Positions 20,601 to 23,600 of a stretch of 64,000 nt of DNA are shown here, one piece after another. Made by a program: the position numbers. The stretch is taken from the NCBI RefSeq assembly GCF_001677475.2, contig NZ_CP015229.1; one strand, given 5' to 3'. Origin of the DNA: Escherichia coli (GTDB lineage: Bacteria; Pseudomonadota; Gammaproteobacteria; Enterobacterales; Enterobacteriaceae). How positions within the stretch are numbered: the first letter of the stretch is position 1; every line of letters begins with the position of its first letter.

Positions 20601-23600
20601 TGGGCTAATCCCCCCTACCAGATACCCCGTCGAACGCTGCGCGACCATCGGATCGGCCATCTCAACTTTCTTGGCACCCAGCGCTTTTGCTACTTTTTTA
20701 AGATCCAGTTGACCTGCGACCGGCGTAACAGCCACGGCAAGGTGTTTCATATCACCGTTCACTGCGACCAGCAGCGTTTTGTAGACCTGATCCGGATTCA
20801 AACCTAATTTTTTGACGACTTCATCGCCAAAATTGGTTTCAGCCGGATCGTGCTCGTAGGTATGGATTTGAAACGAAATCTTGTTTTTTTCGAGTAATTT
20901 AACTGCCGGTGTCATGGTAATTTTCCTGCCTTAAACAAAAAAACGAAGCAAGCATACGCCTGATGGCGGTCCAAAAAAAAGAGTCATCTTGCCTAAGAGT
21001 ATTGGCAGGATGGTGAGATTGAGCGACAATCGAGTTACACCGTCGCTTAAAGTGACGGCATAATAATAAAAAAATGAAATTCCTCTTTGACGGGCCAATA
21101 GCGATATTGGCCATTTTTTTAGCGCAACATCTGCGGCAAATTCCCTTCTCCATACAGATGTAGTGCACCGACCGCGACCACATAGCGCCCCGGCGGCATG
21201 TTGCGTAATTTGTCCCGCCAGGCGAGATTTCGCTGGTGCATCAGTACATCGTACAGCGACTGGCTGAACGTATTCGGCAGCGTTATTTCATTATTTTGCG
21301 GCGGTGTATTCAGCCACCAGCTCATCATTTGTTGCAGCAACCGTGCGTTGGTATGCCAGTGGGTCAGCGTATCGTCCAGCAGCGTCAGTCCTTTGTCAGG
21401 GAGCTGGAGCAACATGGCAATCTGGTTTTCAGCCCCTTCCAGTTCAATCACGGGTTTATGTTGTTGCTTCGCCGCCTGCAATAGCTGGTAATCGATACCG
21501 TATTCTGCCCGCAGCCCCAGTTTTTGTGCCTGCGTTGCCTGAAGAACCATCGCGATTTGCCACAGCGGTTGGGTAGAAAAGAGTGACGGAGAAATGCCCA
21601 TCTCCTGGCTAATGTGCTGCAGATTTTGTAATTGCTCCTCGCTAATACGCTCTTCCAGCGCCTCGCAGGCAGGCAAATTAGCAAAAGGCGTATCGCTGGT
21701 GGAAACATCAGCCTCGACGATCAGCGCATCGGCGTTTTTGAGCTTTTTGAGCAAACGGGTGGGCAGGGGAGCCATATCGTGACTCCCCATATGAATACTG
21801 CCAATCAGATGAAAATGGCGATTGCCGGGAAGAGAGATATCGATGGCAGGCCAGGTGTAATGATTACCGCGCAGCGCGGCCCAAAGCGTTTTTACCCGGT
21901 ACAACAGATCCATACGGCCTCCCTTTGTGAAATATCATGCTAGCGCGCGGGGAGGGATGGCGCAAATGGAGTTGATTGTTGCACTTGTGCACAGTGCGTC
22001 ATCCGGCAACTGAGTACCATTGCCTGATGCGACGCTGGCGCGTCTTATCATGCCTACAAACCTGTGCCGTAGGCTGGATAAGGCGTTCACGCCGCATCCG
22101 GCAGTCTGCGTCGATGCCAAATGCGCCACCCTAAAGCAGCGCATCCGCAATGACATACTTATTCCTTCGGTTTAAACCGCAGCAATCGGTTAGCGTTACT
22201 CACCACCGTAATCGACGAGAGCGCCATTGCCGCTCCGGCGACCACCGGGTTAAGCAGTGTTCCGGTGAACGGCCACAAAATACCGGCGGCGACCGGAATA
22301 CCGATACTGTTGTAGATAAACGCGCCAAGCAGGTTTTGCTTCATATTGCGTAGCGTCGCGCGGGAGATGGCGAGTGCGTCTGCAACCCCCATCAGGCTAT
22401 GGCGCATCAGGGTAATCGCCGCGGTTTCAATGGCAACATCACTCCCGCCACCCATCGCAATGCCGACATCCGCCTGGGCCAGCGCTGGCGCGTCGTTAAT
22501 GCCGTCGCCCACCATTGCCACCTGACGTCCTTCACTTTGCAGACGTTTAATCGCTTCGGCTTTTCCATCCGGCAATACACCCGCAATCACTTCATCAATC
22601 CCTGCTTCTTTGGCGATCGCATTGGCGGTGGTTGGGTTATCGCCGGTTAACATTACCAGACGATATCCCGCTTTATGCAGACGTTGCAGCGCCGCCACGC
22701 TATCGCTACGCAATGGATCGCGTACCGCCAACAGAGCCACCGCTTTGCCATCAACGGCCAGTAACACCGGCGTTGCGCCTTGTGATGCCTGAGCTGAAAT
22801 ATCGGCTTCAATCGCTTTAGTATCGACTTGCTGATCATTTAACAGAGCCTGATTCCCCAGCAGCAGTGAATGGCCTTCCGCTTCGCCACTTACCCCCAGT
22901 CCGCGCAATGTACGGAAGCTATTGACCTGTGGCAGCGTGATATCGCCTGCTTTATCGAGGATTGCCCGCGCCAGCGGATGGCTGGAACCTTGCTCCAGCG
23001 CCGCCGCCAGACGCAATGCCTGCGCTTCATCAACATCAGCAAATGTTTTCACTGCGACAACCTGCGGCTTCCCTTCAGTCAGCGTCCCGGTTTTATCGAA
23101 CACCACGGTGTCGAGCGTACTGGCGCGTTGCAGCGCGTCGGCGTCCCGCACCAGCACGCCAAACTCAGCCGCCCGCCCGACGCCGGAAATAATCGACATC
23201 GGCGTCGCCAGCCCCAGCGCACACGGACAGGCGATAATCAGTACCGTGGTGGCAATCACCAGGGTATAGACAATCTGCGGTGCCGGACCAAAGAAATACC
23301 AGATTGCCGCACTGACAAGCGCAATAACCACTACTACCGGCACAAATACGGCTGAGATTTTATCCGCCAGCTGACCGATTTCTGGCTTGCTGCTCTGGGC
23401 CTGGCGCACCATGCGAATGATCCTTGATAGCGTGGTATGGCTGCCAACCGCACTGGCACGAAACAGCACACTGCCGTCCTGTACCACTGTCCCGGCATGG
23501 ACGCTATCGCCTTCGCCTTTTTGCTGCGGGATTGGTTCGCCCGTCAGCATCGCTTCATCCAGCCACGCTTCGCCCTGGGTAATCTCGCCATCTACCGGCA

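What the first reader, a model, noticed from the sequence alone, without database searches (positions are those of the whole stretch)
21914..22158. ybaP-copA interval is only 245 bp and filled with REP elements; no ybaQ-like gene
From memory, K-12 carries a small HTH gene (ybaQ) between ybaP and copA. Here the interval contains only REP palindromes and no plausible ORF. If my recollection is right, this is a strain-specific gene absence at a REP-mediated junction. The ORF-track entry at 21935-22156 is a translation of the REP palindromes.
Basis: partly seen in the sequence, partly recalled or inferred. Interest (0 to 1): 0.25.

Follow-up and report, generated by a model that had tools for sequence, protein, structure and literature searches.

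The report
Toxin-antitoxin deletion scar between ybaP and copA
The short REP-filled gap between ybaP and copA is the scar left by loss of a small two-gene toxin-antitoxin module (higB-1/ybaQ), a gene-content difference among Escherichia strains that is already described and is of little wider interest.

Summary
The ybaP-copA interval is exactly 245 bp (21914-22158). It holds two complete REP elements and one truncated one. No ybaQ or higB-like coding sequence occurs anywhere in the 64-kb window.

K-12 MG1655 does carry ybaQ here, in a 794-bp interval. B2 strains such as 536 carry a complete HigB-like toxin plus YbaQ (HigA) antitoxin pair. Of 5,426 complete E. coli genomes, 1,266 have both genes, about 3,568 have ybaQ alone and 592 have neither.

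Citrobacter, Salmonella and Klebsiella have copA and ybaP adjacent with no such genes, so the module is an Escherichia-specific insertion that has been lost repeatedly.

In the window the first 84-86 nt match the toxin-bearing form, including about 25 nt found only upstream of higB-1. That sequence then runs straight into a truncated REP. This is best read as one deletion of about 0.75-0.8 kb that removed both genes.

The absence is not strain-specific:
- The same junction is in E. whittamii.
- The same interval is in at least four independent NCBI draft assemblies.
- No complete E. coli genome has this junction.

The polymorphism was published by Rousset et al. It is ordinary and low in interest.

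The parts
21119..21913 (-). ybaP (TraB/GumN family protein, 264 aa), intact
   Evidence: ORF. Pfam PF01963, E = 4e-43. Annotated ybaP in E. coli hits.
21914..21974 (.). ybaP-proximal leader/upstream sequence shared by all Escherichia alleles of the interval
   Evidence: Nearly invariant columns in the 7-allele alignment through window position 21973, with one variable position at 21917 (G here, A in the other six) and one at 21951. Matches K-12 interval positions 1-61 at 96.7%. The core 'CATGCTAGCGCG' is also kept in Citrobacter, Salmonella and Klebsiella.
21975..21999 (+). Relic of the higB-1 upstream (promoter/operator) region, specific to the toxin-bearing allele. The -10-like TACAAT/TATAAT box and everything downstream are missing
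   Evidence: Window 21914-21997 is 97.6% identical to the first 84 nt of the strain 536 interval. Window 21885-21997 is 99.1% identical to B2 strains, and the match stops there in all 5,422 genomes. The same sequence is followed by the higB-1 start in 536 and in the divergent Escherichia genome E69. The promoter assignment is by eye; the consensus scan called nothing.
22000..22008 (.). Truncated Y-type REP (right-hand end only, CATCCGGCA); right breakpoint of the deletion
   Evidence: Aligns to the 3' end of the full Y REP in the K-12 BIME. The same truncated REP is at the same junction in E. whittamii.
22022..22057 (+). Complete Z-type REP
   Evidence: 1 mismatch to the pattern, 4 copies in the window against 0 expected. 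Internal palindrome.
22069..22103 (+). Complete Y-type REP, inverted relative to the Z REP. Together they form a BIME
   Evidence: 0 mismatches, 4 copies against 0 expected. Inverted repeats I1 and I3. Window 22000-22159 is 89.8% identical to the K-12 REP array. Sub-threshold naRNA4 (REP-derived) Rfam hits.
22104..22158 (-). copA 3' flank conserved in Escherichia alleles, with a small inverted repeat ATGCGC/GCGCAT (22121-22126 / 22139-22144)
   Evidence: Conserved columns at the right end of alignment A1. Matches 536 interval positions 832-870 at 94.9%. No intrinsic terminator was called in the interval.
22159..24663 (-). copA (copper-exporting P-type ATPase, 834 aa), intact. Its 3' ~800 bp (22159-22960) is an unusually divergent patch
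   Evidence: ORF. There are 12 aa differences from K-12 CopA, and mismatches are concentrated at 22159-22958. The segment is at most 91.8% identical to every complete E. coli genome, while the flanks are about 98%.
21935..22156 (-). Spurious 73-aa ORF reading through the REPs; not a gene
   Evidence: No Pfam family. It overlaps the REP copies.

Best explanation
The 245-bp interval is a deletion scar. An Escherichia ancestor carried a type II toxin-antitoxin operon between ybaP and copA, transcribed divergently from ybaP. The operon consisted of higB-1 (a HigB/RelE-like toxin) and ybaQ (a HigA-type HTH antitoxin). In some alleles a REP array (BIME) follows it, lying downstream of copA. One deletion of about 0.75-0.8 kb joined a point about 85 nt upstream of ybaP, inside the higB-1 upstream region, to a point inside the first Y-type REP of the BIME. 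Toxin and antitoxin were lost together.

Four things remain: the ybaP leader; about 25 nt of orphaned higB-1 upstream sequence; a truncated Y REP followed by a Z and a Y REP; and the conserved copA 3' flank. The remaining REP pair probably acts as REPs do elsewhere, as a 3' hairpin on the copA transcript. It now sits directly between copA and ybaP, which are on the same strand.

The allele is old. It is shared with E. whittamii and is fixed in the lineage the window comes from.

Shown directly: the absence of the genes, the homology of the two flanks to the two allele types, the truncated REP, and the shared junction. Inferred: that a single event made the deletion, the mechanism (illegitimate recombination ending in a REP), and any function of the remaining REPs.
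For: - K-12 has ybaQ here and strain 536 has the toxin plus ybaQ. The toxin is PF05015 HigB-like (E = 2.7e-32) and YbaQ is HTH_3.
- Window 21914-21997 matches the toxin-bearing allele at 97.6-99.1%, about 23 nt beyond the point where the K-12-type allele diverges.
- That extra sequence is followed by the higB-1 start codon in 536 and in a divergent (about 91% identical) Escherichia genome.
- Window 22000-22159 matches the K-12 REP array, starting inside a REP.
- REP families are verified against chance.
- E. whittamii has the same junction, with point differences and small indels.
- The same 245-bp interval is in four independent NCBI assemblies.
- All 34 non-Escherichia loci where both flanks were found lack both genes, and 30 of them have copA and ybaP 51-269 bp apart. 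The module is therefore an Escherichia-specific insertion.
- Three other E. coli alleles without ybaQ have different breakpoints, so loss is recurrent.
- Rousset et al. report that higB-1/ybaQ is a toxin-antitoxin pair, that ybaQ is essential where higB-1 is intact, and that both genes were lost in phylogroup D. A one-step loss of both genes fits this.
Against: - No genome with the postulated progenitor (higB-1 + ybaQ + downstream BIME) was seen. All sampled toxin-bearing E. coli alleles lack the BIME (rows H18-H26).
- The breakpoint is ambiguous by 2-3 nt, and no clear microhomology was identified.
- The promoter assignment of the retained 25 nt is by eye only; consensus scans called nothing.
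- E. albertii and all outgroups lack the genes, so 'never inserted' has to be argued away from the scar sequence alone.
Confidence: 0.8

Rival explanations
1. Ancestral empty site: this lineage never acquired the higB-1/ybaQ module, and the interval is the original copA-REP-ybaP arrangement into which the module inserted in other lineages.
For: All 34 non-Escherichia loci where both flanks were found lack both genes, as do E. albertii and E. whittamii. 30 of those non-Escherichia loci have a short interval (51-269 bp), and several of the short intervals examined contain REP-like palindromes.
Against: The window keeps about 25 nt that otherwise occur only directly upstream of higB-1. These abut a REP lacking its left half, and REPs do not arise as halves. 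The missing REP half is not found at the other end of the module in 536 or K-12, so insertion into a REP does not explain the pattern.
Confidence: 0.1
2. The deletion did not happen in this lineage. The scar allele was imported by recombination from a more divergent Escherichia, together with the adjacent 3' part of copA.
For: The copA 3' ~800 bp next to the scar is at most 91.8% identical to all 5,421 complete E. coli genomes. Mismatches to K-12 reach about 20% at 22759-22958 and then drop to 0-5%, while flanking DNA is about 98% identical to E. coli. The junction itself is shared with another species, E. whittamii.
Against: No donor was identified. E. whittamii and three other non-coli Escherichia are only 88-93% identical in the same patch. 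This rival concerns how the allele arrived, not what it is, so it is compatible with the best explanation.
Confidence: 0.4
3. Assembly artefact: the REP repeats caused a collapse that removed ybaQ from the assembly.
For: REP arrays are repetitive, and their unit number varies in 101-bp steps among genomes.
Against: The left breakpoint is in unique sequence. The same interval is present, with 0-2 differences, in four independent assemblies, and the same junction is in E. whittamii.
Confidence: 0.01
4. ybaQ (with or without higB-1) is present elsewhere in the same genome, so the gene has moved rather than been lost.
For: Only 64 kb of the genome could be examined.
Against: Nothing is found in the window. 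In E. coli the gene has one place per genome (median and minimum 1), and 592 genomes have no copy at all, so plain loss is common.
Confidence: 0.05

Closest known systems
higB-1/ybaQ toxin-antitoxin locus polymorphism of E. coli (Rousset et al., bioRxiv 10.1101/2020.05.25.114553; ybaQ as 'solitary antitoxin' in RASTA-Bacteria, PMC2374986)
   Same: Same chromosomal site between ybaP and copA. The known states are toxin + antitoxin (B2, F), antitoxin only (K-12 and most phylogroups) and neither (phylogroup D). The window is an instance of the 'neither' state.
   Different: The junction here occurs in none of 5,426 complete E. coli genomes. The E. coli 'neither' alleles that were sampled (XDL, DG342-2, E-1246) have other breakpoints. 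This allele was derived from the toxin-type upstream region and is shared with E. whittamii.
REP / BIME elements of enterobacteria (Y and Z2 REPs, BIME-2; type names recalled from the literature, not tested here)
   Same: Imperfect palindromes of 35-36 nt in alternating orientation, extragenic, downstream of a convergent or tandem gene end, and multi-copy. They are homologous to the REP array that K-12 has at the same site.
   Different: One REP is truncated at the deletion junction. The inter-REP linker is 6 nt shorter than in K-12.
REP-REP recombination events (duplications or deletions between REP copies; recalled from the literature)
   Same: A rearrangement endpoint lies inside a REP.
   Different: Only one endpoint is in a REP. 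The other is in unique promoter-region sequence, so homologous REP-REP exchange cannot have produced it.

Membership tests
REP/BIME extragenic palindromes | An imperfect palindrome of about 35 nt matching a family consensus, present in many dispersed copies | tested here: met
   Y-type 22069-22103 and Z-type 22022-22057 each have 4 copies in the window at up to 3 mismatches, against 0.00 expected. The REP part of a query spanning the interval hits a median of 25 places per E. coli genome.
REP/BIME extragenic palindromes | Extragenic location, with REPs in alternating orientation forming a mosaic (BIME) | tested here: met
   The REPs lie between the copA stop and the ybaP start. The arms are inverted (I1 and I3). 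They are homologous to the K-12 array at the same site. The RNA fold pairs the Y and Z REPs, z = -2.69.
REP/BIME extragenic palindromes | Assignment to BIME-2 (Y + Z2 with short linkers, no IHF site) | tested here: inconclusive
   Linkers of 13 and 11 nt are too short for an IHF-type L motif. The only Rfam similarity is to REP325-derived naRNA4, below threshold at 40.8 against 59.5 bits. The Y/Z2 naming rests on memory of the consensus.
HigB/HigA-type type II toxin-antitoxin module (higB-1/ybaQ) | A HigB-like (PF05015) toxin gene directly upstream of an HTH (HigA) antitoxin gene | tested here: not met
   Neither protein is encoded in the window (tblastn E >= 0.77). Both are present in strain 536 at the same site. 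The window holds only about 25 nt of the module's upstream region.
REP-REP homologous deletion | Both breakpoints inside REP copies | tested here: not met
   The left breakpoint (21997-21999) is in unique higB-1 upstream sequence. Only the right one is in a REP.

The most novel reading that the evidence does not exclude
The scar is an ancient allele shared across species, with the same junction in E. whittamii and in this E. coli-like lineage. It has been moved between Escherichia species by recombination together with a divergent copA 3' tract. On this reading, chromosomal toxin-antitoxin modules are purged by allelic replacement from other species rather than by fresh deletions.
Probability: 0.35. 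Interest if true: 0.25.

Novelty: already known. Interest (0 to 1): 0.1.

Why it matters
It matters little. The result confirms that ybaP-copA is a small hypervariable site in Escherichia. In one, the toxin was lost first, leaving the orphan antitoxin ybaQ of K-12. In the other, both genes were lost at once, as here. ybaQ is reported to be essential where higB-1 is intact (Rousset et al.), so the scar's toxin-type left flank is a neat illustration of that constraint. For annotation, the practical points are that no gene should be called in the interval and that the 73-aa ORF is spurious.

Tried and rejected
- Two metagenome scans for the junction found nothing: one with the exact sequence and one with a degenerate pattern covering the window and E. 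whittamii variants.
- Accession NZ_CP089930 (E69) is not in the annotated collections, so only the 135 nt upstream of its ybaP could be read.
- Consensus promoter/terminator scans called nothing in the interval, only a terminator-like site inside copA, and called nothing in the strain 536 higB-1 upstream region. The promoter reading of the relic therefore rests on inspection and on Rousset et al.
- The text of Gao et al. 2018 (PMC6237786) does not print the YbaQ motif, so the relic could not be compared with it.
- Rfam gave only sub-threshold REP-type hits, so no sRNA is proposed.
- The source organism could not be named. It is about 98% identical to E. coli in the flanks, but no complete E. 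coli genome matches above 98.3% over 21 kb. The GTDB species representatives recovered are 87-95% identical. Shigella or a cryptic clade was considered, but this is unresolved.
- A REP-REP recombination origin was rejected (see the membership test).

Full report
**Observation**

ybaP is the ORF at 21119-21913 on the minus strand. copA ends, stop codon included, at 22159 on the same strand. The interval is therefore 21914-22158, 245 bp, as stated.

The interval contains a Z-type REP at 22022-22057 and a Y-type REP at 22069-22103, in inverted orientation. Each belongs to a family with four copies in the window at up to 3 mismatches, against 0.00 expected from shuffles. The REP part of a query spanning the interval hits a median of 25 places per E. 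coli genome. The only Rfam similarity is to the REP-derived naRNA4 family, and it is below threshold.

The 73-aa ORF at 21935-22156 (-) reads through these palindromes and has no Pfam match. NCBI annotates no gene in comparable REP-only intervals of E. coli. tblastn with YbaQ and with the neighbouring toxin of strain 536 finds nothing in the 64-kb window (best E = 7.1 and 0.77).

**What other genomes have at this site**

- K-12 MG1655 has ybaP, then ybaQ ('HigA family addiction module antitoxin', 113 aa, opposite strand), then a REP array of about 315 bp, then copA. Its interval is 794 bp.
- Strain 536 (B2) has a 100-aa RelE/ParE-family toxin directly upstream of ybaQ and no REP array. The toxin is Pfam HigB-like_toxin (E = 2.7e-32) and YbaQ is HTH_3.
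- A search with the 680-bp toxin-antitoxin segment against 5,426 complete E. coli genomes gives 1,266 genomes with both genes, about 3,568 with ybaQ only (51% coverage) and 592 with no match.
- Three sampled E. coli alleles without ybaQ have three different structures:
  - XDL (303-bp interval) keeps the last ~50 nt of ybaQ plus REPs.
  - DG342-2 (171 bp) keeps the K-12-type upstream region, the last 21 nt of ybaQ and no REP.
  - E-1246 (428 bp) has unrelated sequence whose left part resembles E. albertii.
- Outside Escherichia, none of the 34 Citrobacter, Salmonella, Klebsiella, Enterobacter and related loci where both flanks were found carries either gene. In 30 of them copA and ybaP lie 51-269 bp apart; four have larger gaps of 1.5-3.3 kb.
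- Within the genus, E. albertii and E. whittamii lack the genes. Three unnamed or mislabelled Escherichia species representatives have ybaQ only, one of them truncated.
- A genome about 91% identical to the window (E69) has the toxin-type upstream region followed by the higB-1 start.

The module is therefore an insertion specific to Escherichia. It is old within the genus and has been lost repeatedly.

**Anatomy of the scar**

Positions 21914-21974 are common to all Escherichia alleles.

From 21975 the alleles split into types. The window continues as ATTGTTGCACTTGTGCACAGTGC. This is the sequence found upstream of higB-1 in 536, E69 and hundreds of B2 genomes:
- Window 21914-21997 is 97.6% identical to the first 84 nt of the 536 interval.
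- Window 21885-21997 is 99.1% identical to B2 strains.
- In all 5,422 matching genomes the match stops at 21997, and none covers the junction.

In toxin-bearing genomes the sequence goes on as TTGTGTGCATTACAATG (TATAAT in E69), then a ribosome-binding site and the higB-1 start. In the window it runs into CATCCGGCA at 22000-22008. That is the last 9 nt of a Y-type REP. The rest of the K-type REP array follows (22000-22159, 89.8% identical to K-12), and then the conserved copA 3' flank.

A REP lacking its left half next to a promoter-region fragment lacking its -10 box is the signature of a deletion. Relative to a progenitor with the toxin-type left side and the K-type right side, about 0.75-0.8 kb is missing, which includes both genes.

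The breakpoint is defined to within 2-3 nt. E. whittamii reads GTGCTT|CATCC, matching the toxin-type sequence two bases further. The window has G at 21998.

**Age and spread**

E. whittamii strain Sa2BVA5 has the same junction and the same truncated-Y, Z, Y order. Its interval is 252 bp, with point differences and 6-bp and 1-bp indels. The surrounding 5 kb is only about 92% identical to the window.

The exact YbaP protein of the window is on record in 80 blocks of the assembly collection. Four distinct places were shown, all NCBI drafts. All have a 245-bp gap with 0-2 differences in the interval, while their flanks differ from the window by 0-1.4%.

The absence is therefore a lineage-level feature, not a strain-level one. 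That lineage is not among the 5,426 complete E. coli genomes: the best identity is 98.3% over 21 kb, and K-12 is 97.96%.

**A divergent patch next to the scar**

The 3' ~800 bp of copA (22159-22960) is at most 91.8% identical to any complete E. coli genome. Mismatches to K-12 reach about 20 per 100 nt at 22759-22958 and fall to 0-5 beyond, apart from one 100-nt bin with 10. CopA remains intact, with 12 amino-acid differences from K-12. Its last 200 residues are identical to those of E. whittamii despite about 10% nucleotide divergence.

This looks like a recombinant tract abutting the scar. The scar allele may have been imported with it. No donor was found; four other Escherichia species are equally distant in this tract.

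**Mechanism**

The shown steps are the absence of the genes, the two homologies, the truncated REP and the shared junction.

The inferred step is a single illegitimate deletion in a toxin-type allele, ending inside a REP. It cannot be REP-REP homologous recombination, because the left end is in unique sequence.

Rousset et al. showed that ybaQ knock-down is lethal in strains with intact higB-1 and that ybaQ represses higB-1. They also noted loss of higB-1 in most phylogroups and of both genes in phylogroup D. The window's toxin-type left flank fits the expectation that an antitoxin can be lost only after, or together with, its toxin.

The remaining REP pair is predicted to fold (MFE -100 kcal/mol, z = -2.69). 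It lies in the copA 3' region and plausibly acts as a 3' stabiliser or partial terminator between the now tandem copA and ybaP. That was not tested, and no intrinsic terminator or promoter consensus was called in the interval.

**Comparison with what is known, and verdict**

Both components are textbook: REP/BIME elements and a HigB/HigA-type chromosomal toxin-antitoxin module. The presence/absence polymorphism at this exact site is published. The particular junction is not in complete E. coli genomes, but it is a trivial new allele of a known polymorphism.

The main weakness of the deletion model is that the postulated progenitor, a toxin-antitoxin module followed by a BIME, was not observed. 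All sampled toxin-bearing E. coli alleles lack the BIME.

Interest is low.

Noticed in passing
window 27180-52962: About 25.8 kb absent from K-12 lies between ybaT and cueR. It holds a TolC-family outer-membrane protein (27489-28844), a single 6,925-aa ORF (28947-49724), an ABC transporter (49728-51890) and a HlyD-type protein (51887-53062). Together these form a type I secretion island with a giant adhesin. The left end of the island is present in 958 of 5,426 complete E. coli genomes, including O157:H7, where the giant gene is annotated 'siiEA: BapA-related adhesin'.
   Followed up: partly
window 53467-56116: About 2.65 kb absent from K-12 lies between cueR and ybbJ. It includes a 338-aa protein with a YadA-like membrane anchor (54178-55194, minus strand), likely a small trimeric autotransporter, plus two ORFs with no Pfam match and REP copies at 55953-56117.
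   Followed up: partly
window 22159-22960 (3' third of copA): This patch is locally divergent: at most 91.8% identical to every complete E. coli genome and up to about 20% mismatched to K-12, while the flanks are about 98%. CopA is intact. It looks like a recombination import from an unidentified Escherichia lineage, directly next to the scar.
   Followed up: partly
window 21955-21969 and 22117-22131: A 15-nt imperfect inverted repeat (GGATGGCGCAAATGG / CCAAATGCGCCACCC, 80% complementary) brackets the variable part of the interval. Both arms lie in the flanks conserved among Escherichia alleles, and they pair in the predicted RNA fold. It may be the remnant of an older hairpin into which the variable material was inserted.
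   Followed up: no
E. coli loci L001, L006 and one search hit spans: The REP array downstream of ybaQ varies among E. coli genomes in steps of 101 bp (match spans of 1648, 1749, 1850 and 1951 bp). This points to expansion and contraction of a Y+Z BIME unit.
   Followed up: no
L008 3085-3363 (Escherichia sp. E1V33): ybaQ in this species representative aligns only over residues 1-93 and has an internal deletion near its 3' end. It appears to be an orphan antitoxin in the course of decay.
   Followed up: no
L004 815-1242 (E. coli E-1246): This is a fourth kind of ybaP-copA interval (428 bp). It has no ybaQ and no typical REPs, holds GC-rich palindromic sequence of unknown nature, and has a different copA 3' flank. 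Its left part resembles the E. albertii allele.
   Followed up: no
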